Below the pieces are notes generated by a model. That model was given only the letters and a program-made list of their open reading frames with translations. It had not been told where the DNA came from and made no database searches. From NCBI GenBank assembly GCA_017520185.1, contig JAFXGO010000026.1:14729-78728 (forward strand): DNA of 64,000 nt. The letters run 5' to 3'. The stretch comes from Elusimicrobiaceae bacterium (lineage in GTDB: Bacteria; Elusimicrobiota; Elusimicrobia; Elusimicrobiales; Elusimicrobiaceae). Below are positions 5,487 to 61,272 of this stretch, one piece after another (within the stretch, counting starts at the first letter, position 1; every line of letters starts with the position of its first letter). A program made the translations under genes and the position numbers.

Positions 5487-6701
5487 ATGAAAAAATTTTT
5501 GACTCAAAGTAAAGGATGGGCATTAGTTATTGCCACTTTTGTTGTTGTTTTCTCTTTTAGCACCGTAGATCATGCCATCTCTCCTTTGGTGGAATGGTTA
5601 AGTTTTTTCTTTCACACCGGTGCAGAAAGAACTTTGTGGCTTATTTCTTCCTGTACTGCAGGTATTGTGCTCGGTTTATTTTTAGGACCGCAACTTTTAA
5701 AAACCTTTCGCATTTCTCAAGTTCTTTGGGCCAGCTTGTTGATGATGGTGGGAGGAATATGGGCTTTTGTCAGCATTCCCTTTTTTCCTGTTTCTTTACT
5801 AATTCGTCTTGTTTTCGGATTGGGAGCAGGTTTATTTAGCACCGTTTTATGGTGGCTGACATATGAAGCGATAGACAAACGTTTTTACCTTCCTATGATT
5901 ATCGTTTTGACGGCCGCACGTCCAATGGCGGTGGCGGCAGGGGTTCCGTTGGTTTTGTACTCAAGTACTTTGCTTAATTGGCGGGTATCGTTTGCTATTA
6001 CAGGTGTTTTAATTGCTCTGTTTTGCACCGCTTTTATTTTTACCGCTCCCCCTGATAATAAAGAAAAATCAAAATTCACCCTTATGGCTTTGTTCAAAAC
6101 GTATCAAACGGCATGGAAAACACCTCATTTAAAAGATTTTTTTACCGCCATGTTGATTAACCGTTTGTGTTATTTTGGATTTTATTCCATGCTGGGATTA
6201 TGGTTTATCGGTCATTATCAACTTTCAACACCTCAATTAGCACGCCCTTTGATGGCCATCGGCCTCTGCGAAACCATCATCAATTTTGTGGTGCCTGTAT
6301 TGATGAAAATAGGACAAAAAAAATTATTTTATTTATCCCTTCTTTTTAATATTGTGTTTTTTGGTTTATTTGCATGGGGAGCCTTGCCGTTATGGGTCAC
6401 TATTTTGTTCATCGGATTGTTTGCTATGACAGATCGCATTTATGGCATGTTGCTGCTTATTTTTATCCCTTCTATTTTCAAAGACTCCAAAGACCGCACC
6501 ACCATCGGCAGTTTGGTGACTTTGGTTTCTTGGATGTCTTTGATGTTAATTTCATGGATAGAGGGAAGTTTTTTAGAAAGCATAGGACTAAAAAACATGG
6601 CGGTCCTTTTGTTAGTATTTTTGGCTATCAGCTTTGCGCTATATATCAAAATGCTACGTAAAACTATTTTTTCTTCGAACAGCATTTCCAACAACACATA
6701 A
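5487..6701 (+). CDS. MFS transporter (probable exporter)
   Basis: About 12 hydrophobic segments; ATG 1 nt after the methyltransferase stop. Confidence 0.85.
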   Translation: MKKFLTQSKGWALVIATFVVVFSFSTVDHAISPLVEWLSFFFHTGAERTLWLISSCTAGIVLGLFLGPQLLKTFRISQVLWASLLMMVGGIWAFVSIPFFPVSLLIRLVFGLGAGLFSTVLWWLTYEAIDKRFYLPMIIVLTAARPMAVAAGVPLVLYSSTLLNWRVSFAITGVLIALFCTAFIFTAPPDNKEKSKFTLMALFKTYQTAWKTPHLKDFFTAMLINRLCYFGFYSMLGLWFIGHYQLSTPQLARPLMAIGLCETIINFVVPVLMKIGQKKLFYLSLLFNIVFFGLFAWGALPLWVTILFIGLFAMTDRIYGMLLLIFIPSIFKDSKDRTTIGSLVTLVSWMSLMLISWIEGSFLESIGLKNMAVLLLVFLAISFALYIKMLRKTIFSSNSISNNT

Positions 6702-6737
6702 TCTCTTGCCAACAAACCCCCGTAGATTAACGAATAT

Positions 6738-6774
6738 AAAAACGCCCTTTGAGCAAACTGCAAAGGGCGTTTTT
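6738..6774. terminator. Bidirectional intrinsic terminator after the MFS gene
   Basis: AAAAACGCCCTTTG-N9-CAAAGGGCGTTTTT perfect inverted repeat. Confidence 0.8.
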
Positions 6775-6857
6775 ACATCTTATTATACAAGCAAACTTGT
6801 AGCACATTATACCTTTCAAATCCTAATCAAGGTCAAGCGGTTTGCCTATGCTCTTAT

Positions 6858-6883
6858 AAAAAAACCCACACTAGGTGGGTTTT
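6858..6883 (-). terminator. Terminator after tRNA-Val
   Basis: AAAACCCAC-ACTAG-GTGGGTTTT hairpin with U-tract on the minus strand. Confidence 0.7.
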
Positions 6884-6887
6884 CAAA

Positions 6888-6962
6888 TGGTGGGCAGTAC
6901 AGGATTTGAACCTGTGACCTTCCGCGTGTGAGGCGGACGCGCTACCACTGCGCCAACTGCCC
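6888..6962 (-). tRNA. tRNA-Val, anticodon CAC, encoded CCA
   Basis: Cloverleaf: acceptor GGGCAGT/ACTGCCC, D-stem GCGC/GCGC, anticodon arm TCCGC-CTCACAC-GCGGA, T-loop TTCAAAT. Confidence 0.96.
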
Positions 6963-7075
6963 GTCTGTAAATATTATAGCAAAAATTATAGTTTTATTTC
7001 TTTTTTTCTTTGAATCTTGTGCGTATCTCCGTCAATTTTATGATAAGATAAAACTATACTTTTCTGGAGAATATT

Positions 7076-29727: not shown

Positions 29728-30837
29728 TTATATCCTCACCGGCATAATGACGTATTTTAATTCTTCATTTTCCACCGGTTCAATAAGTACCGGTTGAGAA
29801 GCATTAACAAAAGAGAAATTTACTTTCTCACTACCTACATTTTTTAGTACATCAATAATATATTGAGGATTAAAAGCGCAATCAAAAGCTTCTTGCGTAT
29901 ATTCAATAGGTAATTCGTCGGTAAATTCCATATTTTGAGATGTAGAAGAAATAGTCATAGTATTATTTTCTATATGAAATTTGACAGTTTTTCCAAACTC
30001 ACCCGAACATAAAGCCGCGCGACGAGTAGAAGCTAATAACTCTTTGGTAAAAACATCAAAAGATATGTTTTTCTTATTAGGAATTACTTGTTTGTAGTTT
30101 GGAAAATTCCCTTCAATCAAACGAGAAATAAAGGTAGTTTCATTCATTTGAAAACTAACTTGATTAGAAGCTACATTCACATGAATTTGAGTATCTTTAT
30201 CCGGTTTAGCTAAAGAGATAAAACGAACTACTTCATTTAAAATTTTAGTAGGAATAATAATTTTAAATTCACCGGAATCCGGTAAAGCAGCATGAGAAGC
30301 TACTGCCAAACGTCCACCATCGGTAGCAACTACTTCAAATTTTTCAGCGGTATTACTCCATAAAAGGCCGTTTAAAATATAACGAGTTTCCTGTGTAGAA
30401 GCAGAAAAGGCCGTTTTATCTATCATATTTTGTAATGCTAAAGGACTTAATACCATGCTGCCTGTTTTTTCAATTTCGGGAATGGCCGGATATTCTGATT
30501 TAGGAGTACCTATAACCCAAAATTTACTTTTACCAGATTTAATATGAAATTTATTATTTTCACCGGTATAGAGATTAATTTCTTTACCGTCAGGAAGATT
30601 TTTAATAATATCAGAAAAATCCTTCATCGGTACAGTTATACTTCCTTCTTCTTCAATCTCAGCAGAAATATAATGTACAGTGGCCATTTCCATATCAGTA
30701 CGAACTAATTTTAATTTGTTTTCCTGAGTTTCAATTAAAAAGTTATGCAAAATGGGCAACGTAGTACGGGAAGATGAACCCGTAGAAATAACCTGAATAC
30801 CTTCCAAAAGAGTTTCTTTAGTAATATTTATTTTCAT
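29728..30837 (-). CDS. dnaN: DNA polymerase III beta sliding clamp
   Basis: LPIL, TDME, RYILNG, ATDGGRL, RLIEGNFP, C-terminal VIMPVR. Confidence 0.96.
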   Translation of the reverse strand: MKINITKETLLEGIQVISTGSSSRTTLPILHNFLIETQENKLKLVRTDMEMATVHYISAEIEEEGSITVPMKDFSDIIKNLPDGKEINLYTGENNKFHIKSGKSKFWVIGTPKSEYPAIPEIEKTGSMVLSPLALQNMIDKTAFSASTQETRYILNGLLWSNTAEKFEVVATDGGRLAVASHAALPDSGEFKIIIPTKILNEVVRFISLAKPDKDTQIHVNVASNQVSFQMNETTFISRLIEGNFPNYKQVIPNKKNISFDVFTKELLASTRRAALCSGEFGKTVKFHIENNTMTISSTSQNMEFTDELPIEYTQEAFDCAFNPQYIIDVLKNVGSEKVNFSFVNASQPVLIEPVENEELKYVIMPVRI

Positions 30838-31024
30838 ATTCTTATTATTCCTATTATATGTCCTGTTGATGGTGTGGATTTTGTTAATTTATCTATATAA
30901 ATCTGTTATCTTACTTGTTAATAAGTCTGTTAATTTATAAACATCATAAACATAACTTTTGTTTATAGACTGTTTGTTTTTGGTTTTTCCCCAAATTATC
31001 CACTTTTTCTATTTGTTATCCACA
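30838..31024. other. Probable oriC component: AT-rich dnaA-dnaN intergenic region with DnaA boxes
   Basis: TTATCCACA 31016-31024, TTATCCACT 30996-31004, TGTTAATAA 30917-30925, TGTGGATTT 30873-30881; gene orientation switches nearby. Confidence 0.7.
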
Positions 31025-32397
31025 GCTTTAATATCACTTAAAATTCGGTTAATTTCAGCTGCGAAAAAGGGATCGTTTTTTATTTTATCTTTTACCAAAT
31101 CACGGGCATGAACTACAGTACTGTGATCTCTGTTAAATTCTCTGCCTATTTCCGATAAAGACATATCCGTCAGAGACGTCGTTAAATAAATAGCTATTTG
31201 TCTGGGCCATGCAATAGATTGCATTTTACGTTTAGAACTAAAATCTTCTATTTCTATTTTGAAATATTTACCCACTACTTTTTTAATAGTGTGTACGTTT
31301 ACGGCTAAACGTTTTTCTTCTAAAGTTAAGATATCTGCTAATAATTCTTTTGCAATAGCAATGGTAGGTATTACTCCATGCATATCACAATAAGACATAA
31401 GTCTAAATAAAGCCCCTTCTAATTCACGTATATTGGTTTGTATGCCTTCAGCAATAAAAGCCAAAACATCATCTCCAATATCAAAATTAATAGATTCTCT
31501 TTTTTGTCTTAAAATGGCGATACGTGCTTCAAAATAAGGTTTTTTAATCTCACAGGTAGGTCCGGACAATAAACGAGATGAAAGACGTTCGTCTAAATCT
31601 AATTGTTGAGGGGTTCTGTCAGAAGATAAAACAATCTGTTTACTGCTTTCAAATAAAGCATTAAATGTATGGAAAAATTCTTGAACACTTACTTTGTCGG
31701 ATTTTCCGGCGACGAATTGAATATCGTCCATTAATAAACAATCTAAAGATCTATATTTTTTGCGGAAATTTTCCGTTGCACTGTATTGGATAGCTTCTAC
31801 ATATTCTGCCACAAATTCTTCCGCAGACATATATAATACTTTAGCACTCGGATTATTTTTTAAAATTTGGTTTCCGATAGCATGTAATAAGTGGGTTTTT
31901 CCTAATCCCGGAGTGGAATAAATAAATAAAGGATTATGAGATCTATCTCCTAATTTATTAGCCGCTGCCTGAGAAATTTTATAAGCAAAGCGGTTAGACG
32001 GAGATTCAATAAAATTATCAAATTGATATAAAGAGTTTAAACGGGAAGGAAAAAGATTTTTTTTGATAACCGGCGCAACAGAAACCGCCTGAGGGGCAGA
32101 TACAGGGCTTTGATTTTCTTCTCCAACAGATTGAATAGTTTCTTTAATTTCTTTAATAATATAGGTAATAGAAATCTCTAAACCGGTATGTTTTAAAAAA
32201 GCATCTTTAATTATATTTTCGTAGCGGTTTTGTATTGTTTTTTGCCAAAAAGTGTTAGGCAATTGTATAGATAAATTAGTATTATCCAACTCAAATACGG
32301 CAGGTCTAATCCACATATCATAGGTATCTTTGCCTAAAATTGTTTCTAATTCTTTAAAAATAGGAGATAATTGTTCATTAGATTGTAGATTGTCCAC
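31009..32397 (-). CDS. dnaA: Chromosomal replication initiator DnaA (GTG start)
   Basis: [39 protein letters not shown]. Confidence 0.97.
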
Positions 32398-32429
32398 TTC
32401 GAGTTCCGCCTAAAAATAATATATATTAA

Positions 32430-32458
32430 ATCTTATCAATTATAAAATCCAACGTCAA
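32430..32458 (-). promoter_or_regulatory. Sigma70-type promoter of dnaA
   Basis: TTGACG-N17-TAAGAT with extended TG on the minus strand. Confidence 0.7.
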
Positions 32459-32600
32459 CTATAAAAAATACAGTTTTACGGTTTAAATCACAAAAAACCC
32501 CTAAAATTCTTGTTTTTTAAAAAAATGGCTATTTACCCCTTTAAAAATAATAAAAACTTTTAATTTTTTAATTTAAACGATAAAACGTAAAAAAATATAT

Positions 32601-32609
32601 TTATCCACA
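32601..32609 (+). promoter_or_regulatory. Perfect DnaA box upstream of dnaA
   Basis: TTATCCACA inside a very AT-rich intergenic region. Confidence 0.65.
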
Positions 32610-32742
32610 AGATATTATCAATTTTTTCTAATACTTTTTTGTTGCTTGTTTATTTTAAAAATAAAATTTATACTAAAAATCATATAAATATGATATAATT
32701 TAATAAGAAAAATTCTTATTAATAATAAAAAGGGGGAAGAAT

Positions 32743-33126
32743 ATGCCGAAACTTTATGAAATTTATAAATGTGATGTTTGTGGAAATATAACAGAAGTAG
32801 TGCATGGTGGAAAAGCAGAAATGTTTTGTTGTGGTAAACCTATGACACTTCAAGTGGCGGGTACAGTAGAAGCCTCTACGGAAAAACATATTCCGGTGAT
32901 AGAAAAAATAGAAGGCGGTTTTAAAGTAAAGGTAGGAGAAGTAGAACATCCGATGATTGACTTACATTATATAGAATGGATAGAATTAATAACAGAAGAT
33001 GGTCTTGTATTACGTAAACATTTAAAACCGGGTGATAAGCCGGAGGCTGTATTTATGTGTGATGCTACAAGAGTGACAGCCAGAGAATATTGTAATCTTC
33101 ACGGATTATGGAATAAAGAGATTTAA
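32743..33126 (+). CDS. dfx: Desulfoferrodoxin (class I superoxide reductase)
   Basis: CxxCG...CC centre I; EKHIP, HPM...HYIEW, CNLHGLW. Confidence 0.95.
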
Positions 33127-33175
33127 TCATATCCTTATCAAAAATAGGAAATCAATAAGATAGTAAGGAGAAACT

Positions 33176-34369
33176 ATGAAGGCAGTTAAAATTACAGATA
33201 AAGTATATTGGGTAGGGGCTATTGATTGGAATATTCGTGATTTTCATGGATATTCGACAAAACAAGGAACTACATATAATGCTTTTTTGATTTTAAGCGA
33301 AAAACCTACCTTAATAGATACCGTTAAAAAAGAATTTTATCCGGAAATGATGGCACGTATTCAAAGTGTAATTGATCCGAAAAAAATCAAGATTATTATT
33401 TCTAACCATTCTGAAATGGATCATTCCGGTGCTTTACCTGAAACAGTAGCCGCTATAGAGCCGGAAGAAGTGTATTGTTCGGATATGGGTCATGTGGATT
33501 TAACGGAACAACTTTATCCTAATTTTGAAATGAAAGTTGTAAAAACGGGTGATAGAATTGATGTGGGAGGAGATACTATTTCCTTTGTAGAAGCCCGCAT
33601 GTTGCACTGGCCTGATAGTATGTTTTCTTACTTAGAAAAAGAAAATATTTTATTTACCAATGATGTATTTGGTATGCATTATGCTACCGGTAAATTATTT
33701 GACGATGAAAACAATGAGATAGATTGGCTCTACGAAGCAGAAAAATATTATGCCAATATTGTATTGCCTTATTCTGATATTGTATTACGCTTTTTAGACA
33801 ATGTAAAAAAAATGGGTCTTGCTCCCAAAGTCATTGCTCCGGATCATGGTTTTATCTGGAGAAAAGATCCTGCCAAAATTATCAGTTTATATGAAAAATG
33901 GGCTACACAGGCACCGAATAATAAAGCTGTCGTCGTCTATGATACAATGTGGGGAAGTACTCAAAAGATGGCCGAATATGTGGCAGATGGTCTTAGGGAA
34001 GGCGGCACAGAAGTAAAATTAATGTCTATGCATTCCTGCCATAGAAGTGATGTTGTGACGGAATTGTTAGACAGTAGTGCTTTAGTTATTGGAAGTCCTG
34101 TATTAAATTCAGAAATTTTTCCGGCGATGGCAGATGTTTTGTGTTATTTAAAAGGTCTTAAAAAGAAAAATTTAGTAGGTGCGGCTTTTGGCTCTTATGG
34201 TTGGAATCCTGCTCCTATTAAATCATTGGAAGAAACATTAAAGGCCATGAAAGTGGAGCAAGTTTATCCGACGGTCACTTCCAAATTCGTACCCAATGCC
34301 GATACATTACAGGCATGCCGTCAAATGGGATTAACGATTAGTCAGAAAATTGCCGAAAAATTGAAATAA
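33176..34369 (+). CDS. fprA: Flavodiiron protein (O2/NO reductase)
   Basis: GTTYNAFLI, HSEMDH, HWPDSM, YDTMWGST, FGSYGW. Confidence 0.93.
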   Translation: MKAVKITDKVYWVGAIDWNIRDFHGYSTKQGTTYNAFLILSEKPTLIDTVKKEFYPEMMARIQSVIDPKKIKIIISNHSEMDHSGALPETVAAIEPEEVYCSDMGHVDLTEQLYPNFEMKVVKTGDRIDVGGDTISFVEARMLHWPDSMFSYLEKENILFTNDVFGMHYATGKLFDDENNEIDWLYEAEKYYANIVLPYSDIVLRFLDNVKKMGLAPKVIAPDHGFIWRKDPAKIISLYEKWATQAPNNKAVVVYDTMWGSTQKMAEYVADGLREGGTEVKLMSMHSCHRSDVVTELLDSSALVIGSPVLNSEIFPAMADVLCYLKGLKKKNLVGAAFGSYGWNPAPIKSLEETLKAMKVEQVYPTVTSKFVPNADTLQACRQMGLTISQKIAEKLK

Positions 34370-34378
34370 GGGTTTTTT

Positions 34379-34888
34379 ATGAATCAAAATTTTATTGACG
34401 GATTAAATTGTATTACTTATGGTTTATATATAGTGTCATCGTCTTTTGAAGGTAAAGACAGTGCTATGATTGTAAATACGGTTTTTCAAGTCAGTGCAGA
34501 ACCACCAAAAGTTGCTATATCTGTTAATAAAGAATGTTTGACTCATGAAATTATCCAAAAAAGCCATGTTTTTGCCGCTATGCCTTTGGAACAAAAAACA
34601 GATCTTCCTTTTATAGGTAGATTTGGTTTTCGTACAGGACGTAATTTTGATAAATTTGCCGGTATTGACATAAAACGTTCCTCTTCAGGGATGCCTATTG
34701 TGCAAGAACATACACTTAGTTTTATAGAAGTAAAAGTAGAACAAGAAGTAGATGTGGGGACTCATACCATGTTTATAGGTACGGTGCAAGAGGCAAGATG
34801 TTCCTCTTTACATCAAGAACCCTTAACATATGAGTATTATCATAAAGTTATTAAAGGGAAAGCACCTAAAGGTGCCACCCATCTTTAA
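34379..34888 (+). CDS. Flavin reductase-like protein (resembles Hrb N-terminal domain)
   Basis: TYGLYIV, NTVFQV, RFGFRTGR..DKF, GTHTMFIG, PLTYEYY. Confidence 0.85.
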   Translation: MNQNFIDGLNCITYGLYIVSSSFEGKDSAMIVNTVFQVSAEPPKVAISVNKECLTHEIIQKSHVFAAMPLEQKTDLPFIGRFGFRTGRNFDKFAGIDIKRSSSGMPIVQEHTLSFIEVKVEQEVDVGTHTMFIGTVQEARCSSLHQEPLTYEYYHKVIKGKAPKGATHL

Positions 34889-34905
34889 AATAATTGGAGG
34901 AAGTT

Positions 34906-35064
34906 ATGAAATATATTTGTGAAATTTGTGGTTATACCTATGATCCCGCCGAAGGAGATGCTACCAAAGGTATTGCTGCTGGTACGAAATTCGAAGATCT
35001 GCCGGCCGATTGGGTTTGCCCCGTCTGTGGAGTAGGTAAAGATCAATTTAAACCGGCAGAATAA
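34906..35064 (+). CDS. rub: Rubredoxin (52 aa, below ORF-track cutoff)
   Basis: [14 protein letters not shown]...[20 protein letters not shown]; GGAGG RBS. Confidence 0.96.
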
Positions 35065-35084
35065 GTACTTCGGTTTTAATGATT

Positions 35085-35121
35085 TAAAAAGCACAAAACA
35101 AAAAATGTTTTGTGCTTTTTA
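35085..35121. terminator. Terminator after rubredoxin
   Basis: AAAAAGCACAAAACA-N5-TGTTTTGTGCTTTTT. Confidence 0.8.
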
Positions 35122-35449
35122 TTATTTAATATTCATAGAAATTATGGTAAAAATTATAACTATAATCGGTAATTTATACTTTGTATGCCAGCTTGTTTGA
35201 TAATCTTTATTTCATAAAGGACAAAGGGATAAGATCCAATATCAAAAAAAATACTTAATTGCTTTTTTATGTTCTCAAATTCAGAAAATTCAAAAGAAAA
35301 TAAATCCATTAAATTTTAATATCTGTTTGTAGAAAAACACAACCGGAAATTAGAAAATATATGCAAAATATATATATTATTTTTTTATATAAATCTCCTT
35401 TTTTATACTATATGAAAGAATATAAATATAACTTTGCTATAATAAATAC

Positions 35450-36553
35450 ATGAAAATTCTCTATGTTTCCACTTCTACGGATATGGGTGGAGCCGAAACG
35501 TCTTTGCGTTCTTTGGCTCTAACCGCTAAAAATGCCGGACATACTGTTAAAATTATTTCTTTAAAACCGTTAGGATCCGTCGGAAAAGATATTATTTCTC
35601 AAGGGATAGAAGTTATTTCTTTGAATTTAAAATCTAAAGCCAATATGCTGGAAAATGCAGGAGTTTTTGCAAGACTTTTGCAGGAAATAGAAATTTTTAA
35701 TCCGGATATTGTGCATGCTCTTTTATTTAGAGCCATACAGTTTTGTCGTTCTGCAAAGAAAAAATTATCTTTTAAGTTAATAACTACCCCCCATTATGAT
35801 TTATCCAAAAAAAATTATTTTTTACGTCTGTGGGATCGTTCTTTAAAAGATATGGATGATATAAGTTGTGCAGAATCTCAGTCTACGGCTGATTTCTTAA
35901 CACATAAACAGAAATATAAAGAAGATAAAGTTTTTTTAATCCAAAATAGTGTGGATACACATTATTTTACCCCCAATGAAAGTTTGGGAAAAAAAACTCG
36001 TGAAAAATTGGGTTTTCATGCCAAAGATACGGTATTTATTTGTGTGGCGCGTTTGTCTGCAGAAAAAAATCATCAACTTTTGTTTGAAAGTTTTGCGTCC
36101 GTAAAGGCCAAAAATCCGAAAATTGGGTTGATAGTAGTAGGGGACGGCCCAGAAAACGCGAAATTGAAGGAATTTGCTTATCAACGAAATTTAGAAAACA
36201 ATATTTGTTTTGTAGGAGAAGTAAGTAATGTTTATCCTTATTTGTTAGCATCTGATGTTTTTATTCTTACTTCTTTCGTTGAAAGTCTACCTATTTCTTT
36301 ATTAGAGGCTTGTTCGTGTCAATTACCTGCTATTGTTAGTAAAGTGGGTGATATGCCTTTGGTTGTACAACATGGCAAAACCGGATTTGTTTTTAATGGC
36401 ACAGACCCTGTGCTTTTAAATGTATTAATGGCAGAAATATGTCAAAATGAAAATTTAAGAAAAGAAATGGGAATATCTGCCAGAAAAAGAATAAAGAAAA
36501 ACTATTCTTGTTCTGAAGAAAAATACATTCAATTATATGAAAAAATAAAATAG
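35450..36553 (+). CDS. Glycosyltransferase family 4
   Basis: GGAE, VARLSAEKN, VGDGP, E...LLEA, SKVGD (GT-B fold). Confidence 0.9.
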   Translation: MKILYVSTSTDMGGAETSLRSLALTAKNAGHTVKIISLKPLGSVGKDIISQGIEVISLNLKSKANMLENAGVFARLLQEIEIFNPDIVHALLFRAIQFCRSAKKKLSFKLITTPHYDLSKKNYFLRLWDRSLKDMDDISCAESQSTADFLTHKQKYKEDKVFLIQNSVDTHYFTPNESLGKKTREKLGFHAKDTVFICVARLSAEKNHQLLFESFASVKAKNPKIGLIVVGDGPENAKLKEFAYQRNLENNICFVGEVSNVYPYLLASDVFILTSFVESLPISLLEACSCQLPAIVSKVGDMPLVVQHGKTGFVFNGTDPVLLNVLMAEICQNENLRKEMGISARKRIKKNYSCSEEKYIQLYEKIK

Positions 36554-36570
36554 TTTTCACGTGAAAACTA
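36551..36570. other. parS-like palindrome 1
   Basis: TAGTTTTCACGTGAAAACTA, perfect 20-bp palindrome. Confidence 0.8.
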
Positions 36571-36579
36571 GGAGCTTTT

Positions 36580-37560
36580 ATGGAATCGAAACTTTTTGTT
36601 GTTGCTTGTATTATGTATATTTTTTCTTGGATTAGTAAAAAACTATTTAAGAAGAATAAAATTGCTGATGGAAAAAAATTTGGTTTTTGGCATGCAATTT
36701 TTTTGTTGTTGATTTTGTCTTGTGCTTATAATATTATTAATTTTGTCATAAATAGTGGAGTAGAAAATCCTTTTTTGGATAAAGGATTTTCTTTGAAAAA
36801 AATAGTTATTCCTTTTATTATTCTTTTTATTTCCATATATGGCTTTTTTTCTGCTAAGAATAAAAAAGGAGAATCAAAAAATATTTTAATAAAAAGTGAT
36901 TTGGAGTGGGCAAATACGGTCTATTTCGCTGGATTTGTTGCCTCTATTGTTATGTTTTTCTTTGTGCAGGCTTTTAAGATTCCGTCTGCATCTATGCAAA
37001 ACACCTTGTTAATAGGAGACCATTTGTTTGTTAATAAAGCCGCTTATGGTTTTAGAATTCCGCTGACTCAAATTAGATTCTTAGAATTTAATGAGATAAA
37101 AAAAGGAGATATTATTGTTTTTTCTTTTCCGGCAGAAAGTAAGGAACAAATTAATTGTGGTGGTTATCAATATGGAAAAGACTATGTTAAAAGAGTAATT
37201 GCTTTAGGCGGAGATAAAGTTGAAGTAAAAAATGCCAAACTTTATGTTAATGATCAAGAGGTAGAAAAACAAGGGTATGAAATTTATGAACCGGTTTCTC
37301 GTTTGCAGGCAGAACATAAATTAGATGGAACAACCTATCAATTATTATGGGAAAATAGAATTTTGGAACATGAGTTAGGAATGTCATTAAGAGATAATTT
37401 TGGCCCTGTTATTGTTCCGGAAGGGCAATATTTTGCTATGGGAGATAATAGAGATAATTCTTGTGATTCCCGTTTTTGGGGGCCTGTTCCTAGAAAAAAT
37501 ATCAAGGGGACTGTTTGGTTTATCCACTGGCCGATAAGCAGAATAGGTATTGTAAAATAA
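36580..37560 (+). CDS. lepB: Signal peptidase I with extra N-terminal TM segments
   Basis: PSASM catalytic Ser, IGDHLFVNK, DYVKRV catalytic Lys, GDNRDNSCDSRFWG. Confidence 0.93.
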   Translation: MESKLFVVACIMYIFSWISKKLFKKNKIADGKKFGFWHAIFLLLILSCAYNIINFVINSGVENPFLDKGFSLKKIVIPFIILFISIYGFFSAKNKKGESKNILIKSDLEWANTVYFAGFVASIVMFFFVQAFKIPSASMQNTLLIGDHLFVNKAAYGFRIPLTQIRFLEFNEIKKGDIIVFSFPAESKEQINCGGYQYGKDYVKRVIALGGDKVEVKNAKLYVNDQEVEKQGYEIYEPVSRLQAEHKLDGTTYQLLWENRILEHELGMSLRDNFGPVIVPEGQYFAMGDNRDNSCDSRFWGPVPRKNIKGTVWFIHWPISRIGIVK

Positions 37561-37585
37561 TAAATTGTATAGGAAAACTTTTATT

Positions 37586-37628
37586 TGTGGATAATTTATC
37601 CACACAAATTAACAGGTTTTGTGAAAAA
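37586..37628. promoter_or_regulatory. DnaA-box cluster upstream of parA
   Basis: TGTGGATAA-T-TTATCCACA inverted pair (37586-37604) plus TGTGAAAAA (37620-37628). Confidence 0.7.
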
Positions 37629-37641
37629 CAAAACCTGTTTT

Positions 37642-37657
37642 GTTTTCACGTGAAAAC
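37642..37657. other. parS-like palindrome 2
   Basis: GTTTTCACGTGAAAAC, perfect 16-bp palindrome about 50 nt before parA. Confidence 0.8.
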
Positions 37658-37708
37658 TGACTTGCTTTTTGTTCCCTTTATATGATTTAATATGTTTATG
37701 GAGGATTT

Positions 37709-38542
37709 ATGGGAGAGATAATTGCTATTGCAAATCAAAAAGGTGGTGTTGGTAAAACAACCACTTCTATTAATTTGGCGTATGCCCTAGCACATTTAGA
37801 TCAAGAAGTTTTGTTGATTGATTTTGACCCTCAAGGAAATGCCGGTTCAGGATTAGGTATTACTGTGGAAGAAGGAGAAAAATCGGTCTATCACTTATTG
37901 ACAAAAAATGCTACTTTTGAAGAAGTTATTAGACAAACTTCTAATGAAATGTTAGATGTTATCCCCACATGCAAACATTTAGCCGGTGCAGAAGTTGAAC
38001 TGGTTAATGTGCGTGGTCGTGAGAATATGCTTAAAGAAGCCTTGTCTCCTTTGCGCAAAATGTATAAATACATTATTATAGATTGTCCTCCTTCTTTGGG
38101 TCTTCTTACCTTAAATGCTCTAATGGCGGCAGACAGTGTAATTACTCCGGTACAATGTGAATTTTATGCTATGGAAGGATTGGCTCATTTTATGGGAACT
38201 ATCCAAAAAATTAGACAATTCTTAAATAGCAACTTAAAATTAGATGGCGGTGTATTAACAATGTACGATAATCGTATGAATCTATCTCGCCAAGTATTTG
38301 CAGAAGTCAGTCGTTTCTTTGGGGAAAAAATTTATAAAACTCCGATTCCCCGTAATATCCGCTTAGCCGAAGCTCCCAGCTTTGGGCAATCTATTTTTGA
38401 TTATGAGCCTGCCTGTCGCGGTGCGAATGCTTATATTCAGTTAGCTATTGAATTTATGGCCAGACGCGGTGCTGATATGGAAGAATATGCAGGCTATAAT
38501 ATGCAAAACGCAGAAACTTATAACTATGATTTTGGAGGATAA
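37709..38542 (+). CDS. parA: Chromosome partitioning ATPase ParA/Soj
   Basis: NQKGGVGKTT deviant Walker A, DPQGNA, DCPPSLG, IPRNIRLAEAPSFG. Confidence 0.96.
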   Translation: MGEIIAIANQKGGVGKTTTSINLAYALAHLDQEVLLIDFDPQGNAGSGLGITVEEGEKSVYHLLTKNATFEEVIRQTSNEMLDVIPTCKHLAGAEVELVNVRGRENMLKEALSPLRKMYKYIIIDCPPSLGLLTLNALMAADSVITPVQCEFYAMEGLAHFMGTIQKIRQFLNSNLKLDGGVLTMYDNRMNLSRQVFAEVSRFFGEKIYKTPIPRNIRLAEAPSFGQSIFDYEPACRGANAYIQLAIEFMARRGADMEEYAGYNMQNAETYNYDFGG

Positions 38543-38546
38543 TTAA

Positions 38547-39437
38547 ATGTCAAGACAAGCATTAGGAAAAGGCCTCGATGCCTTGCTTAAACAAACACAG
38601 GAAGTTTTAAATAATCCTACGGCTGTTCGTCCGGAAAATCCGTCCGGTCCCTCTGTACAAAAAATATCTTTAGAGAAAATTATCCCCAACCGCTATCAAC
38701 CGCGTCGTATTTTTGATGAAAGCAAACTGCAAGAATTGGCCCAATCTATACAAGAACATGGCCTTACTCAACCTATTGTTGTAGTTTACGATGTTGGATT
38801 GGATAAATATGAAATTGTAGTGGGTGAGCGCCGTTTCCGCGCCAGTCAGTTGGCCGGACTTACGGAAATAGATGCTATTGTGCATAAGGCTTTGACAGAT
38901 AAAGAGATGTGTGCTTTGGCTTTGATTGAAAATATTCAGCGCGAAGATTTAAACCCGATAGAAACGGCTTTGGGATATAGAAATTTAATGAGTAAATTTG
39001 AAATTTCTCAAACAGATTTAGCCGGATATTGTGGCAAATCTAAAGCAGCTGTTTCAAACTCATTGCGTTTGTTGGAACTTCCCGAACATATGCAAGAGGC
39101 TTTGCAAGACGGTACTATTTCTGAAGGGCATGGACGGGCTTTATTGATGTTATTGGATCCTATTAAAAAAGAATCTCTTTTTCAAAGATTGAAAAAAAAT
39201 AAAATGTCTGTCCGACAAGCAGAAGAAGCCGCCAGAGCATTATTGCAGCCGTCACCTATTAAGTTGCCAAAACCGCCTGAGGTTGCTTCTTTTGAAAATG
39301 ACTTACAAGCCTCTTTGGGAACAAAAGTAGAAGTGCGTTATGGTAAAAAAATGTCAAAAGGTGTTTTGATTATCCAATATAATTCTTTGGAAGAATTGGA
39401 TAATATTGCTAATCGTTTGAAAACAAAATTATTATAA
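38547..39437 (+). CDS. parB: Chromosome partitioning CTPase ParB
   Basis: PNRYQPR, GERRFRA, ENIQREDLNP, HTH domain. Confidence 0.96.
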   Translation: MSRQALGKGLDALLKQTQEVLNNPTAVRPENPSGPSVQKISLEKIIPNRYQPRRIFDESKLQELAQSIQEHGLTQPIVVVYDVGLDKYEIVVGERRFRASQLAGLTEIDAIVHKALTDKEMCALALIENIQREDLNPIETALGYRNLMSKFEISQTDLAGYCGKSKAAVSNSLRLLELPEHMQEALQDGTISEGHGRALLMLLDPIKKESLFQRLKKNKMSVRQAEEAARALLQPSPIKLPKPPEVASFENDLQASLGTKVEVRYGKKMSKGVLIIQYNSLEELDNIANRLKTKLL

Positions 39438-48696: not shown

Positions 48697-49326
48697 TTAT
48701 TTATACAGGCTATACACTTCGGGCATTTCTAAGAGTTCTTTGGTTAATTTTTGAAACTCATGTCCGGTAAAAGTACCCACGATAGTGACGTGGAAATGCC
48801 CTTCGTGTTTGGATACTTCTTGCTTTAAAATTTTTACGTTTTGAGATTCAATGGTTTGGCGGATTTTATCGATTACGGTCCACTGAGGCTGACAGGTAAG
48901 AAAAAAAGTATCATAGCGGCGCAATTTTTCCACAAGCCCTAATGTTCGGCGCACACCCAATTGCATCAGCAGAATCAGCGCACACGCACCGGAAGCCAAC
49001 ACATATTGCCCATAACCTACCGCCATGCCGATAGCGGCCACCAACCACACAGCGGCAGCAGTCGTTAAGCCGGAAACTTTATTTCCTTCGCGCAAAATAG
49101 CCCCTGCCCCTAAAAAGCCTACACCGGATACAATTTGTGCTGCGATACGTCCGGGATCTCCACCCATTTCTCCCATTTTTAATGACAGAATGGTAAATAA
49201 TGCCGCCCCTACGCAGATAATAGCGTTGGTGGCATATCCGGCGGGTTTGTCATTATATTGGCGTTCCAAACCCATCACACCGCCCAAAACTAAAGCAAGC
49301 AAAACTTTCACGATGATTTCTTCCAT
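48697..49326 (-). CDS. MgtC/SapB family protein
   Basis: GLERQ...PAG, RIAAQIVSGVGFLGAG, GLTTAAAVW. Confidence 0.92.
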   Translation of the reverse strand: MEEIIVKVLLALVLGGVMGLERQYNDKPAGYATNAIICVGAALFTILSLKMGEMGGDPGRIAAQIVSGVGFLGAGAILREGNKVSGLTTAAAVWLVAAIGMAVGYGQYVLASGACALILLMQLGVRRTLGLVEKLRRYDTFFLTCQPQWTVIDKIRQTIESQNVKILKQEVSKHEGHFHVTIVGTFTGHEFQKLTKELLEMPEVYSLYK

Positions 49327-49438
49327 AAGAGCACCCGATCCTTTTGCTGAAAATTTTGATGAAGTCTATATATATTCTAATGATTCTTTGTGTTTTTTTC
49401 CAGCAGAAAATAAGATTAGTTTAAAAAAGTGAAAATCC

Positions 49439-49466
49439 TTGACTTATTTTTTTTTTTTGTTAAATT
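49439..49466 (+). promoter_or_regulatory. Sigma70-type promoter of the pilin-like gene with a T12 homopolymer in the spacer
   Basis: TTGACT (49439-44), 16-nt spacer containing T12 (49447-58), TG-T-TAAATT (49458-66). Confidence 0.6.
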
Positions 49467-49503
49467 GTTTTTATAAGAAAAATTAACAAGAAGGAGATTT
49501 TAG

Positions 49504-50022
49504 ATGAAAAATTTATCTAAAAGAAATACAAGCGGTTTTACGCTGATAGAACTGCTGGTGGTAGTGTTGATTATCGGCATTTTGGCGGCGGTGGCATTGC
49601 CTCAGTATCAAAAAGCAGTCACTAAAAGCCACTTTACAGAGGCTTTTATCGGTTTGAAAGCCATTGCAGATGCCGAAAAAGTATGTATGCTTAGCACAGG
49701 AGAAAGTGTGGATGATTTATGTTGTACTGGACAAATCTGCAATGTAGCGGAAAATTTAGACATAGCAATTGGAAAACCGGTGGAAGATCAGCCTCATCGT
49801 AGAGAAACAAAATGGTTTTCTTTTGATCTTGGAAACGGTACTTCTCTTGACTCGGGAAAAATAATGGCACAAGCCCTTTACAAAAAATATGATGCTTGTG
49901 TTTGCATCCATGAAGACGGGCATTTTTCTGGGGGATATAGTGGTTGTGGATCGCCGGAAGCCCCTTTTGATATTTGGAAACTGTTGAATATTGAAGATGA
50001 AGGTACTTGTGGTTGTTGTTAA
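49504..50022 (+). CDS. Type IV pilin-like protein (PilE-like), Cys-rich
   Basis: Basic leader then G|FTLIELLVVVLIIGILAAVALPQYQKAV. Confidence 0.9.
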   Translation: MKNLSKRNTSGFTLIELLVVVLIIGILAAVALPQYQKAVTKSHFTEAFIGLKAIADAEKVCMLSTGESVDDLCCTGQICNVAENLDIAIGKPVEDQPHRRETKWFSFDLGNGTSLDSGKIMAQALYKKYDACVCIHEDGHFSGGYSGCGSPEAPFDIWKLLNIEDEGTCGCC

Positions 50023-50186
50023 GAAGTGCACTGCGTTTTTTGCTTCAAAATTGCTATGATATAAGTAATGCTTGGGCCTAGAGCAGGCGTTATGCCAATC
50101 CTAGCGCACAGCGCTTATTTTTGGTATAATATTTATAATAATTTGTTTGAGACAAATTAGATCTTTTTAGGCAAGAGTTAAACAAA

Positions 50187-51590
50187 ATGGTAGCCCAAAA
50201 AAATCTTTGTGTACTCATTTTGGCCGCCGGCAAAGGCACCAGAATGAAGTCTTCCCTTCCTAAACCCCTGCACCGCGTGTGTGGGATTCCTATGATTGCG
50301 CACAGTTTGCGTGCAGCCCAGAGTTTAAATCCGGGCGCGATTTGCGTTATTGTCGGACACGAAGCGCAACTGTTGATGCAAACTATTACCGAAAATTTAC
50401 AAACGTGGGGAATAAAGGCTCCTGTTGTATTTGCTGAGCAAAAAGAACTTAACGGTTCTGCCGGTGCCGTACGCGCTGCTTTGCCTTTGATTGAAAAATT
50501 TGAAAGCGTAATGGTATTAAACGGTGATGCACCGATGATACGCCCCGAAACTTTGCAACAAATGTTCAGCATTTGCGAAACGGAAAAAGCCGCCGCTATG
50601 GTATTGGGAGTGACTGTGCCTAACCCGAAGGGGTATGGCCGTATCTTACGTCAAAAAAGCGGAGCCTTTGACTGTATTGTGGAAGAAAGCGAAACGGACA
50701 ACAAAACGCGCCAAATAACCGAAGTAAACGGCGGCATGTATGTTTTTAATGCCAAAGATTTGATATCGGCTTTGGCTCTTTTGAAACCGCAAGGCCCGAA
50801 ACAAGAGTTTTATTTAACAGATACTTTGGCCATTATCAAAGATTTTCAGGAAAACGTCTTAGTTTTCAATACGGCAGATTATCAGCAGGCCTTAGGTGTT
50901 AATAGTCGCCAAGAATTGGCATTGGCTGAAGATTTAATGAGAGCCCGTATTGCCGATAAATTGATGGATAACGGAGTTCGTTTAGTCCGCCCGAAAGAAG
51001 TATATATTGATGAAGAAGTGCAAGTAGGCGAAGATACGATTATTTGCCCCGGTTGTTATTTAAAAGGCAAAACCGTTATCGGTAAAAATTGCCGTTTGGA
51101 CGGCAGTGTCTTTATTACAGACTCTGTGATCGGAGATAATGTTTTTATCAAAATGGGCAGTTATATCGAAAACAGTGTGATTGAGGATCATTGCGAAGTG
51201 GGTCCTTATGCTCATTTGCGTCCAAAATCTACTCTGAAAAAGAAAGCCAAAGTGGGGAACTTTTGCGAGATTAAAAATTCCGTCATCGGAGAAGGATCTA
51301 AAGTAAATCACCTGACCTATATCGGTGATACGGATATGGGGGCCGGAGTTAACATTGGCGCCGGTACCATTACTTGCAATTATGACGGTGAAAAGAAACA
51401 TCGCACCGTTATCGGAGACCACAGTTTTGTGGGCTCTAACGTAAATTTTGTAGCGCCTGTAGAGGTAAAAGCCTACAGTAAAATAGGCGCGGGCTCCACA
51501 ATCACCAAAGAAGTGCCGGAAGGCTCTTTGGCCATTGCGCGTGCACGTCAGGTTGTATTAGAAAATAAAGGTATAAAAAAACATGACTAA
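50187..51590 (+). CDS. glmU: Bifunctional UDP-GlcNAc pyrophosphorylase / GlcN-1-P acetyltransferase
   Basis: LAAGKGTRMKS, hexapeptide repeats, NHLTYIGD, GTITCNYDG. Confidence 0.97.
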   Translation: MVAQKNLCVLILAAGKGTRMKSSLPKPLHRVCGIPMIAHSLRAAQSLNPGAICVIVGHEAQLLMQTITENLQTWGIKAPVVFAEQKELNGSAGAVRAALPLIEKFESVMVLNGDAPMIRPETLQQMFSICETEKAAAMVLGVTVPNPKGYGRILRQKSGAFDCIVEESETDNKTRQITEVNGGMYVFNAKDLISALALLKPQGPKQEFYLTDTLAIIKDFQENVLVFNTADYQQALGVNSRQELALAEDLMRARIADKLMDNGVRLVRPKEVYIDEEVQVGEDTIICPGCYLKGKTVIGKNCRLDGSVFITDSVIGDNVFIKMGSYIENSVIEDHCEVGPYAHLRPKSTLKKKAKVGNFCEIKNSVIGEGSKVNHLTYIGDTDMGAGVNIGAGTITCNYDGEKKHRTVIGDHSFVGSNVNFVAPVEVKAYSKIGAGSTITKEVPEGSLAIARARQVVLENKGIKKHD

Positions 51591-60225: not shown

Positions 60226-61272
60226 TTAAAATTGATTTAAAATGCGCAAGTCATTTTCGTAGAAGGTACGGATGTCGTTGATGTTCATCATCATCATGGC
60301 CAACCGTTCCACACCCATACCGAAGGCATAACCGCTGTATACTTCGGGGTCGATGCCGCAGTTTTTAAGTACTTGCGGATTGACTACGCCGGAGCCTAAC
60401 ATTTCTATCCAGCCCGTGCCTTTGCAGATATTGCAGCCTTTACCGCCACAGAATACACATTTTACATCTACTTCGGCGCTGGGCTCGGTAAACGGGAAGA
60501 AGGACGGGCGGAAACGGATTTCCGTTTTGTCTCCTAACAGGCCTTTCATAAAGGCGGTCAAATCTCTTTTCAAATCAGCCATGCTGACATTTTTGTCCAC
60601 GTATAATCCCTCAATTTGATGAAAGACAGGGCTGTGGGTGGCATCTAAACTGTCATTGCGGAACACGCGGCCCGGTGCCATAATGCGAATGGGGGGGTGG
60701 TGTTTCTCCATAAAGCGGCTTTGCACATTGGAGGTGTGTGTGCGTAAAACTAAAGAAAGGGGAGAGCCTGTTTCGGCAAAGAAGGTGTCTTGTGCGTCAC
60801 GCGCAGGGTGATGTTTGGGAATGTTAAGCATATCAAAATTATGCTTTTCATCTTCTACCCAAGGCCCCTCTGCCCATGTGAAACCTAATTTGGATAAAAT
60901 ATCCGTCATGCGTTTCTGAGCGATGGAAAGAGGGTGTCTGCTTCCGCACGCCACAGGACGTGCCGGTAAAGTGAGGTCCAATTCTACGCGGTTGAGTTCT
61001 TCATTTAGGGCTTTGGCAGCCAAGTCAGACGTTTTGTTTTCCAGAGCCTGCGTGAGGGTGGCTTTTAAGGCGTTTCCTAAAGGGCCGGCGGTCTTTTTTT
61101 CTTCGATGGAAAAATCTTTTAGATTTTTTAACAGTTCGGTCAAAGCGCCTTTGCGCCCGAGTGCCGCAACGCGTAGTTCTTCTACGGTGGCTAAATCCGC
61201 CGCAGCGGAAATTTTAGCAATATATTCCTGCTCTAAAGCAGAGCACATGTTTTGAAATTCTTGTAAGGTCAT
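60226..61272 (-). CDS. pheS: Phenylalanine-tRNA ligase alpha subunit
   Basis: HHPARD, LRTHTS, FPFTEPS, GMGVERL. Confidence 0.98.
   Translation of the reverse strand: MTLQEFQNMCSALEQEYIAKISAAADLATVEELRVAALGRKGALTELLKNLKDFSIEEKKTAGPLGNALKATLTQALENKTSDLAAKALNEELNRVELDLTLPARPVACGSRHPLSIAQKRMTDILSKLGFTWAEGPWVEDEKHNFDMLNIPKHHPARDAQDTFFAETGSPLSLVLRTHTSNVQSRFMEKHHPPIRIMAPGRVFRNDSLDATHSPVFHQIEGLYVDKNVSMADLKRDLTAFMKGLLGDKTEIRFRPSFFPFTEPSAEVDVKCVFCGGKGCNICKGTGWIEMLGSGVVNPQVLKNCGIDPEVYSGYAFGMGVERLAMMMMNINDIRTFYENDLRILNQF

What the first reader, a model, noticed from the sequence alone, without database searches (positions are those of the whole stretch)
49439..49466. Putative phase-variable pilin promoter: T12 tract sets the -35/-10 spacing
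Seen: TTGACT-[TA T12 GT]-TAAATT gives a 16-nt spacer. T12 is the longest homopolymer I noticed in the window, and one extra T gives the optimal 17. Known: slipped-strand changes in promoter-spacer tracts tune surface proteins (Neisseria porA, Haemophilus hifA/B, Mycoplasma vlp). Elusimicrobium is reported to carry many PilE-like paralogues. Inference: stochastic switching among pilin paralogues (antigenic or phage-receptor variation), which I do not know to be described for this lineage.
Basis: partly seen in the sequence, partly recalled or inferred. Interest (0 to 1): 0.65.

Follow-up and report, generated by a model that had tools for sequence, protein, structure and literature searches.

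The report
Conserved poly-T pilin promoter cassette
A run of twelve T's sits between the two recognition boxes of a pilin gene promoter in a gut Elusimicrobiaceae bacterium; the same T-run promoter recurs in front of many pilin genes in this family and changes length between close strains, so it probably tunes or switches pilus expression, but no expression data exist.

Summary
TTGACT (49439-44), TA, T12 (49447-58), GT, TAAATT (49461-66) gives a 16-nt spacer. T12 is the longest homopolymer in the window; the next longest is 8. It lies 37 nt upstream of a 172-aa prepilin gene (49504-50022).

Related sequences support the hexamers. At least 13 pilin promoters, from several loci and several Elusimicrobiaceae species, share TTGACN, 1-5 nt, T11-13, G-N, TAnAAT, while the flanks diverge. 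In about 150 kb of non-redundant sequence, every A/T run of 10 or more is one of these tracts.

Length is strongly modal at 12 but not invariant:
- T12 versus T13 in contigs 99.95% identical.
- T12 versus T13 at an Avelusimicrobium alvi locus.
- T11 in one related strain.
- T10, T11 and T12 together in one gut metagenome whose flanks are uniform.

Two other assemblies of the same species carry a tract-less promoter (17-nt spacer), apparently swapped in by recombination.

The best reading is a slippage-prone spacer that tunes or switches pilin transcription, as in Bordetella fim, Mycoplasma vlp and Helicobacter sabA. The serious rival is a fixed structural promoter element with incidental slippage. 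No raw reads, RNA data or clonal data were available. I rate it a new member of a known kind, of moderate interest.

The parts
49396..49410 (+). Distal half-degenerate palindrome TTTTCCAGCAGAAAA. In relatives it reads TTTTCC-N4-GGAAAA. Candidate regulator site in the pilin promoter cassette.
   Evidence: 13 of 29 TTTTC-N4-8-GAAAA matches in 149 kb lie within 120 nt of a pilin T tract. One search gives the alignment of the cassettes.
49439..49444 (+). -35 hexamer TTGACT
   Evidence: TTGAC[T/C/A] is conserved in 12 of 13 tract-bearing cassettes.
49447..49458 (+). T12 homopolymer inside the promoter spacer; the slippage-prone element
   Evidence: longest run in the window; all 13 A/T runs of 10 or more in about 150 kb are pilin-promoter tracts; length polymorphism T10-T13.
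49458..49466 (+). Extended -10: TG (49458-59), T, TAAATT (49461-66)
   Evidence: flags the TG. Relatives have TG-N-TACAAT or TAAAAT at the same position. TTTG-N-TAnnnT is common in other intergenic regions of the window.
49468..49482 (+). Proximal degenerate palindrome TTTTTATAAGAAAAA, overlapping the inferred transcription start (about 49473-49475). Relatives have TTTTCCGGACGGAAAA here.
   Evidence: The TSS position is inferred from the -10 only and has not been mapped.
49491..49496 (+). Shine-Dalgarno AAGGAG
   Evidence: read directly from the sequence; 7 nt before the ATG.
49504..50022 (+). 172-aa type IV pilin-like (prepilin) gene, N-terminus MKNLSKRNTS|GFTLIELLVVVL
   Evidence: PF07963; homologues named type IV pilin in Ca. 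Avelusimicrobium.
49432..49503 (+). Exchangeable promoter block. It is near-identical to the promoters of other paralogues and is replaced by a tract-less allele in other strains.
   Evidence: 18 of 73 differences from L036 fall in 49404-49503; other contigs share 49437-49520.

Best explanation
The T12 tract is the spacer core of a sigma-70-type, extended -10 promoter cassette: TTGACN, 1-5 nt, T11-13, G-N, TAnAAT. This cassette drives type IV pilin-like genes throughout gut Elusimicrobiaceae.

Shown:
- The cassette and its uninterrupted T tract are conserved in front of many pilin paralogues.
- The tract is the only long homopolymer in the neighbourhood.
- It gains and loses 1-2 T far more often than the flanks change.
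- That moves the -35/-10 spacing between 14 and 17 bp.

Inferred:
- Slipped-strand mispairing at the tract modulates promoter strength, either as an on/low switch or as a rheostat.
- A population therefore holds cells with different levels of each pilin.
- T12 (16-bp spacer) is kept by selection as the prevalent state.
- Promoter blocks are also exchanged between paralogues or alleles by recombination, which can remove the tract.
For: - Sequence and coordinates.
- Same locus (mgtC-pilin-glmU) in sister lineages: TTGACT-TG-T12-GC-TACAAT (L003-L013, L015) and T11 in L016, with diverged flanks.
- Other loci: the bipA-pilin locus has T12 in 10 assemblies that differ by up to 42 SNPs in 7 kb. L024 has a second pilin with T12. 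L017, L018 and L020 have T12 and L019 has T11.
- Every A/T run of 10 or more in about 150 kb is such a tract (13 of 13).
- L031 (T12) and L032 (T13) differ by 3 SNPs and this one indel in 8059 bp.
- L038 and L039 have T13 and L040 has T12, at 99.5% identity.
- Run X8 shows T11 at the window's locus.
- Run X7 shows three contigs carrying the locus-specific left flank: T10 (depth 5), T11 (depth 3) and T12 (depth 5.1). The flanks are single contigs at depth 17-18.
- Paralogue cassettes in the same species carry T7, T10, T12 and T12/T13.
- Known precedents in which promoter tracts set fimbrial or adhesin expression: PMC1891110 and PMC4081817.
Against: - No measurement links tract length to expression, and the TSS is unmapped.
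- Length is tightly modal at 12 across species and paralogues, and is invariant in many assemblies. Classical systems such as Bordetella fim2 (10-15) and fim3 (13-18) vary more.
- Most paralogues sit at the same length, which is not what a one-on-many-off family would show.
- With T12 fixed, the spacer is 15, 16 or 19 nt in different cassettes, so spacing is not strictly held.
- An extended -10 usually lowers dependence on the -35.
- The heterogeneity in X7 comes from contigs of a metagenome, so a mixture of strains cannot be excluded.
- The tract-less allele in L036 and L037 shows that the gene can do without the tract.
Confidence: 0.5

Rival explanations
1. Fixed structural promoter element. 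An uninterrupted T tract of about one helical turn, ending in the TTTG -16 motif, is selected because it makes a strong, constitutive pilin promoter through rigid A-tract DNA and RNA polymerase contacts upstream of the extended -10. The length changes seen are ordinary homopolymer mutational noise, neutral or mildly harmful, and are not used for switching.
For: - T12 is the mode in about 10 of 13 independent cassettes over deep divergence.
- T12 is invariant in 10 + 10 assemblies and in 4 runs.
- Aggregated cassette k-mers in bovine gut runs are 80-98% T12.
- The tract length is conserved rather than the spacer length.
- TTTG-N-TAnnnT is the general promoter form in this window.
- The extended -10 reduces the importance of spacing.
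Against: - Tract-length alleles at near-equal depth in one sample, with T10 at least as deep as T11, do not look like noise or stutter.
- Paralogues fixed at T10 or T7 in the same species.
- No other highly expressed gene in the window uses a long tract.
- The tract-less allele with a mixed T/A spacer apparently suffices.
Confidence: 0.33
2. Regulator-dependent cassette. The conserved TTTTCC-N4-GGAAAA palindromes, one upstream of the -35 and one over the transcription start, bind a dimeric regulator of the pilin regulon. The T tract is a spacing or bending element between the two operators, so any effect of length acts through regulator geometry rather than through sigma contacts.
For: - The palindrome is strongly enriched next to the tracts: 13 of 29 hits lie in about 2% of the sequence.
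- It occurs at two positions in the cassettes.
- Bordetella fim promoters also combine a tract with an activator site.
Against: - The window's own copies of the palindrome are degenerate (49396-49410, 49468-49482).
- The L017-L020 cassettes lack the proximal copy.
- No candidate regulator was identified and no binding data exist.
- The distance between the distal palindrome and the -35 varies from 10 to 45 nt.
Confidence: 0.12
3. Chance or assembly artefact. The T12 run would be a random AT-rich stretch or a sequencing or assembly error with no function.
For: Homopolymers are error-prone in sequencing. The simple promoter scan finds many sites in AT-rich DNA.
Against: - The same tract appears in independent assemblies from JGI, ENA, NCBI and Logan.
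- There are no runs of 9-11 anywhere in the window.
- The tract is tied exclusively to pilin promoters.
Confidence: 0.02

Closest known systems
Bordetella fim2/fim3/fimX/fimN promoters (C-stretch plus fim box)
   Same: - Paralogous major fimbrial subunit genes each carry a conserved promoter element.
- That element holds a homopolymeric tract between an upstream recognition site and the -10.
- One-base length changes alter transcription and differ among strains (PMC1891110).
   Different: - The tract here is T, not C.
- The upstream partner here looks like a sigma-70 -35 (TTGACN) rather than a BvgA activator site.
- The length range seen here is narrower (10-13, mode 12) than fim2 (10-15) or fim3 (13-18).
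- The gene here is a type IV pilin-like gene, not a chaperone-usher fimbria.
- No expression data exist here.
Helicobacter pylori sabA promoter T-tract rheostat
   Same: An intergenic T tract next to the core promoter of an adhesin gene varies by slipped-strand mispairing and gives graded promoter output. Similar tracts occur at several genes (PMC4081817).
   Different: In sabA the tract lies adjacent to and upstream of the -35, and works by changing the alignment of UP-like elements. Here the tract lies inside the -35/-10 spacer. The sabA tracts are longer and more variable.
Mycoplasma hyorhinis vlp family (poly-A tract in the promoter spacer)
   Same: A multigene family of surface proteins in which each gene is preceded by a highly conserved promoter block with a homopolymer between the -35 and the -10. 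This is from my own knowledge (Yogev et al. 1991; Citti and Wise 1995) and was not checked here.
   Different: In vlp, different paralogues in one clone sit at different lengths, with one length on and the others off. Here most paralogues sit at T12. Lipoproteins there, pilins here.
Neisseria meningitidis porA (poly-G spacer) and Haemophilus influenzae hifA/hifB (TA repeats)
   Same: A repeat between the -35 and the -10 sets the spacing and hence the level of a surface protein.
   Different: Those are single loci rather than a family-wide cassette, with different repeat types. Reversibility and expression effects are proven there and untested here.
Extended -10 promoters with a T-rich -16 region (Campylobacter/Helicobacter and Gram-positive TRTG type)
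   Same: TG-N-TAnAAT preceded by T's is the general promoter form in this window and in the cassette. The comparison with those organisms is from my own knowledge.
   Different: Those T-rich regions are short and interrupted. A pure run of 11-13 T's restricted to one gene family is not part of that description.

Membership tests
SSR-controlled (contingency) promoter | A simple-sequence repeat long enough to slip (A/T run of about 9-10 or more) | tested here: met
   T12 at 49447-49458. Homologous cassettes have T11-T13.
SSR-controlled (contingency) promoter | The repeat lies within or against the core promoter, so that its length changes promoter geometry | tested here: met
   By sequence and conservation, the tract lies between a conserved TTGACN and TG-N-TAnAAT. 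The TSS is not mapped.
SSR-controlled (contingency) promoter | Length polymorphism among closely related strains or within populations, in excess of the background mutation | tested here: met
   - One indel against 3 SNPs in 8 kb.
- T12 versus T13 at 99.5% identity.
- T10, T11 and T12 in one metagenome with uniform flanks.
- Many samples are nevertheless uniformly T12.
SSR-controlled (contingency) promoter | High-frequency, reversible length change within a clonal lineage | not testable with these tools
   Only assembled contigs were served. There are no raw reads and no isolates.
SSR-controlled (contingency) promoter | Expression of the downstream gene depends on repeat length | not testable with these tools
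   No RNA runs hold the gene. This needs reporters or transcriptomes.
SSR-controlled (contingency) promoter | The controlled gene encodes a surface or host/phage-interaction structure | tested here: met
   Prepilin N-methylation motif PF07963. Homologues are annotated as type IV pilin.
Sigma-70 extended -10 promoter | TG one base upstream of a TAnnnT -10 hexamer, with a -35 about 16-18 bp away | tested here: met
   TG-T-TAAATT with TTGACT at 16 bp. The same register is kept in relatives.
Sigma-70 extended -10 promoter | Transcription starts 6-8 nt downstream of the -10 | not testable with these tools
   No RNA data.
Sigma-54 pilin promoter (as in Pseudomonas pilA) | GG-N10-GC (-24/-12) elements | tested here: not met
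   Inspection of the cassettes. A GC or GA/GT follows the tract, but the GG 10 nt upstream is absent in all except L016, where the gap is 11 T's.
Intrinsic terminator T-tail | A G+C-rich hairpin directly before the T run | tested here: not met
   No terminator-like site at the tract. No gene ends upstream on the + strand.
Known cis-regulatory RNA (Rfam) | A match at the gathering score in the leader or intergenic region | tested here: not met
   Only a sub-threshold chance hit inside the CDS. The leader fold has z = -1.5.

The most novel reading that the evidence does not exclude
Gut Elusimicrobiaceae may run a family-wide contingency system. In it, a concertedly evolving promoter module precedes most members of a large type IV pilin repertoire. 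The module consists of TTGACN, a T11-13 tract, an extended -10, and flanking TTTTCC-N4-GGAAAA palindromes. Slippage in each tract, together with recombinational swapping of whole promoter blocks, would generate combinatorial pilin expression within a population for phage-receptor, adhesion or immune variation. This would be the first such system described for the phylum Elusimicrobiota and for a non-pathogenic gut commensal lineage.
Probability: 0.3. Interest if true: 0.7.

Novelty: new member of a known kind. Interest (0 to 1): 0.55.

Why it matters
Homopolymer-controlled promoters are known almost only from a few pathogens: Neisseria, Haemophilus, Bordetella, Helicobacter, Campylobacter and Mycoplasma.

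If the tract works as proposed, an uncultivated or poorly studied commensal phylum with small genomes and many pilin paralogues would use the same bet-hedging logic. That would explain why it keeps so many pilin genes. It would also give a sequence marker, the tract length of each paralogue, that can be read straight from metagenomes to follow surface variation and phage pressure in animal guts.

Even under the rival reading, the cassette defines the promoter architecture of this family and gives a ready-made strong promoter for genetics in Elusimicrobia.

Tried and rejected
- **Exact-protein look-up of the window's pilin.** Nothing on record.
- **Metagenome-contig scan.** It gave only 4 loci, all informative paralogue cassettes.
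- **Raw reads.** Every run offered was Logan contigs, so per-read tract heterogeneity could not be measured.
- **RNA runs for TSS or expression.** None were served.
- **Logan contigs of other paralogues (L033-L035).** They break at the tract, so their lengths are unknown beyond at least 12.
- **Herlemann et al. 2009.** The paper is not held.
- **Literature on phase variation in Elusimicrobia.** Searches found nothing relevant.
- **Sigma-54 reading.** Rejected because there is no GG-N10-GC.
- **Terminator reading.** Rejected.
- **Known RNA element.** Rejected.
- **A-tract acting on the divergent mgtC promoter.** Rejected because the cassette travels with pilin genes into unrelated contexts.
- **The G7 run at 60691-60697.** It lies in pheS and is ordinary.

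Full report
**1. The observation**

Window 49439-49466 reads TTGACT-TA-T12-GT-TAAATT. The T run occupies 49447-49458. It is the longest homopolymer in the 64 kb; the next longest runs are 8 nt. T-run counts fall 494, 225, 89, 25, 4 for lengths 4-8, and there are no runs of 9-11. A T12 is therefore far outside the background.

The spacer is 16 nt. A TG one base before the -10 makes it an extended -10 promoter. Thirty-seven nucleotides downstream, after an AAGGAG ribosome-binding site, starts a 172-aa ORF (49504-50022). Its N-terminus is MKNLSKRNTS|GFTLIELLVVVL, and it matches the prepilin N-methylation motif PF07963. It is the only pilin-like gene in the window.

The neighbours are a divergent mgtC (48697-49326, minus strand) and glmU (50187-51590). 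Housekeeping proteins place the organism in the Elusimicrobiaceae, near Ca. Avelusimicrobium. Sequencing runs that hold the stretch are animal gut metagenomes.

**2. The hexamers are supported by comparison**

The same mgtC-pilin-glmU locus was found in sister lineages whose pilins are 75-85% identical. It reads TTGACT-TG-T12-GC-TACAAT in 12 assemblies: L003-L010, L012, L013 and L015, plus L011, whose contig starts inside the -35 hexamer but holds the full T12. It reads TTGACT-GG-T11-GC-TACAAT in L016. The sequence upstream of the -35 and downstream of the -10 has diverged. The -35, the TG and the -10 keep their register.

TTTG-N-TAnnnT is also frequent in other intergenic regions of the window, for example before glmU. 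The extended -10 with T's before the TG therefore looks like the general promoter form of this organism. Only the pilin promoter extends this into a long pure tract.

**3. The tract belongs to a pilin promoter cassette found at many loci**

| Locus | Loci / runs | Promoter as read |
|---|---|---|
| bipA-pilin | L021-L030 (10 assemblies, up to 42 SNPs per 7 kb) | GCTTGACT-GA-T12-GA-TACAAT |
| Second pilin in L024 | L024 | TTGACA-AACCG-T12-GC-TACAAT |
| P0010 locus | L031 / L032 | TTGACC-G-T12 / T13-GA-TACAAT |
| Four pilin genes in two JGI metagenomes | L017, L018, L020 / L019 | CTTGACTTG-T12 / T11-GCTAAAAT |
| Ca. Avelusimicrobium alvi pilin | L038, L039 / L040 | TTGTTT-TG-T13 / T12-GT-TAAAAT |

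In about 150 kb of non-redundant sequence (the window plus 11 loci), every A/T run of 10 or more is such a tract. That is 13 of 13. Each is T on the pilin sense strand and lies directly 5' of G-N-TAnAAT.

In the window's own species, Logan contigs with other upstream flanks share 49437-49520. They carry T12 (or T13 in run X8), T10, T12 and T7. Several paralogues in the same genome therefore have the cassette. Assemblies tend to break at it.

**4. Is the length variable?**

Evidence for stability:
- T12 is the mode in about 10 of 13 independent cassettes.
- The 10 assemblies of the sister-lineage locus are all T12, but they are practically clonal.
- The 10 assemblies of the bipA locus are all T12 although they differ by up to 0.6%.
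- Runs X1, X2, X3 and X6 each have a single contig through the tract with T12 and no variant contigs.
- Pooled cassette k-mers in four bovine gut runs are mostly T12, with T11 at roughly 2-20%.

Evidence for instability:
- L031 and L032 differ by 3 SNPs and one indel in 8059 bp, and the indel is in the tract.
- L038 and L039 versus L040 show T13 versus T12 at 99.5% identity.
- Run X8 has T11 at the window's locus.
- In run X7 the left flank is one 709-bp contig (depth 16.9) that stops at the tenth T, and the right flank is one 788-bp contig (depth 18.3).
- Between those flanks in X7 lie three short contigs that all carry the locus-specific left flank: T10 (depth 5), T11 (depth 3) and T12 (depth 5.1).
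- A T10 allele at least as deep as T11 is not a stutter pattern.

The tract is therefore an indel hotspot and can be heterogeneous in a natural sample. Because these are metagenome contigs, I cannot separate in-situ slippage from a mixture of strains that differ only here.

**5. Promoter replacement**

Two other assemblies of the same species are L036 (98.9% identical over 6.5 kb) and L037. Run X12 shows the same allele. At this locus they have TTAACT-TCTTTTTCTTTAAAAAT-TAAATT, a 17-nt spacer with no long tract.

Of 73 differences between the window and L036, 18 lie in 49404-49503 and 16 in the variable part of the pilin (49704-49903). Elsewhere the rate is about one per 100-200 bp. The promoter block has therefore been exchanged by recombination.

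L014 carries the identical pilin P0003 behind an unrelated, tract-less upstream sequence.

**6. Mechanism**

Shown: a conserved -35 / T-tract / TG / -10 arrangement in front of pilin genes, purity of the tract over deep divergence, and excess length polymorphism.

Inferred: slippage alters the -35/-10 spacing and hence pilin transcription. Spacings of 14-17 bp were observed, and 19 bp in one cassette. Selection would hold T12 as the common state.

The main rival is that the tract is a fixed structural element of a strong promoter and that the slippage is incidental. Three points favour the rival:
- the tight mode at 12;
- the variable distance between TTGACN and the tract;
- the extended -10.

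Two points favour a functional or at least tolerated role for length variation:
- paralogues fixed at T10 or T7;
- the X7 mixture.

A third idea arises from a palindrome, TTTTCC-N4-GGAAAA. It occurs just after the -10 in several relatives (TTTTCCGGACGGAAAA) and 10-45 nt upstream of the -35 (TTTTCCGTCGGGAAAA). Thirteen of 29 matches in 149 kb lie within 120 nt of a tract. This suggests a regulator. The window's own copies are degenerate.

Sigma-54, terminator and RNA-element readings were tested and rejected.

**7. Comparison with known systems**

The closest analogue is the Bordetella fim family. There, paralogous fimbrial subunit genes share a promoter element containing a C-stretch whose length affects transcription and varies among strains (PMC1891110).

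The H. pylori sabA T-tract is a rheostat, but it lies beside the -35 rather than within the spacer (PMC4081817).

Mycoplasma vlp, Neisseria porA and Haemophilus hif are the classical spacer-repeat cases. I cite these from my own knowledge.

The present case meets the sequence-level criteria of this class. The two defining functional criteria, reversible clonal switching and length-dependent expression, could not be tested. I found no paper describing this for Elusimicrobia.

**8. Verdict**

If functional, this is a new member of a known kind, in a phylum where nothing of the sort is described. Interest is moderate (0.55). It would be higher if the family-wide, combinatorial reading proves true.

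Noticed in passing
window 29728-39437: The window holds the chromosomal replication-origin region. It contains dnaN (29728-30837, minus strand), dnaA (31009-32397, minus strand), parA (37709-38542) and parB (38547-39437). The cumulative GC-skew minimum is at about 30-32 kb. There is a low-GC stretch (31-34% against 40-44%) from about 29 to 40 kb. The pilin locus lies about 17 kb to the right, co-oriented with replication.
   Followed up: partly
window 36554-36567 and 37643-37656: Two copies of a perfect 14-bp palindrome, TTTTCACGTGAAAA, flank the signal peptidase I gene (36580-37560). Their function is unknown.
   Followed up: no
window 49396-49410 and 49468-49482; L003 3958-3973; L021 5875-5890: The palindrome TTTTCC-N4-GGAAAA is part of the pilin promoter cassette in relatives. 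It occurs upstream of the -35 and over the likely start site, and is strongly enriched near the T tracts (13 of 29 hits in 149 kb). The window's own copies are degenerate. It is a candidate operator.
   Followed up: partly
L036 2820-3000, L037 1-195 (same locus as window 49327-49503): Other assemblies of the same species carry a tract-less promoter allele, TTAACT-N17-TAAATT. Differences from the window cluster in the promoter (18 in 100 bp) and in the variable part of the pilin (16 in 200 bp).
   Followed up: yes
L014 1-340: An 849-bp contig encodes exactly the same pilin protein as L013 (P0003). Its upstream region is completely different and has no tract (TTGTCA-N17-TAAAAT). It may be a second promoter context or an assembly chimera.
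   Followed up: no
L021 6403-6409; L031 6409-6416: A G7 run (L021) and a G8 run (L031) lie inside the coding sequence of pilin paralogues, in genomes where G/C runs of 7 or more are rare. Both genes are in frame as assembled. This may be a second slippage site.
   Followed up: no
L021-L029, about 6589-7050: An IS200/IS605-type Y1 transposase gene lies directly downstream of the bipA-locus pilin. The sequence beyond it differs among assemblies (GDPD, frr, or another pilin), which indicates rearrangement at this point.
   Followed up: no
window 60691-60697: This is the only G/C run of 7 in the window. It lies inside pheS (60226-61272, minus strand) and is ordinary.
   Followed up: yes
window 50103-50135: A small hairpin, AGCGCACAGCGCT, followed by TTATTTTTGGTATAAT lies between the pilin and glmU. 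It is a terminator-like site for the pilin that overlaps the extended -10 promoter of glmU.
   Followed up: no
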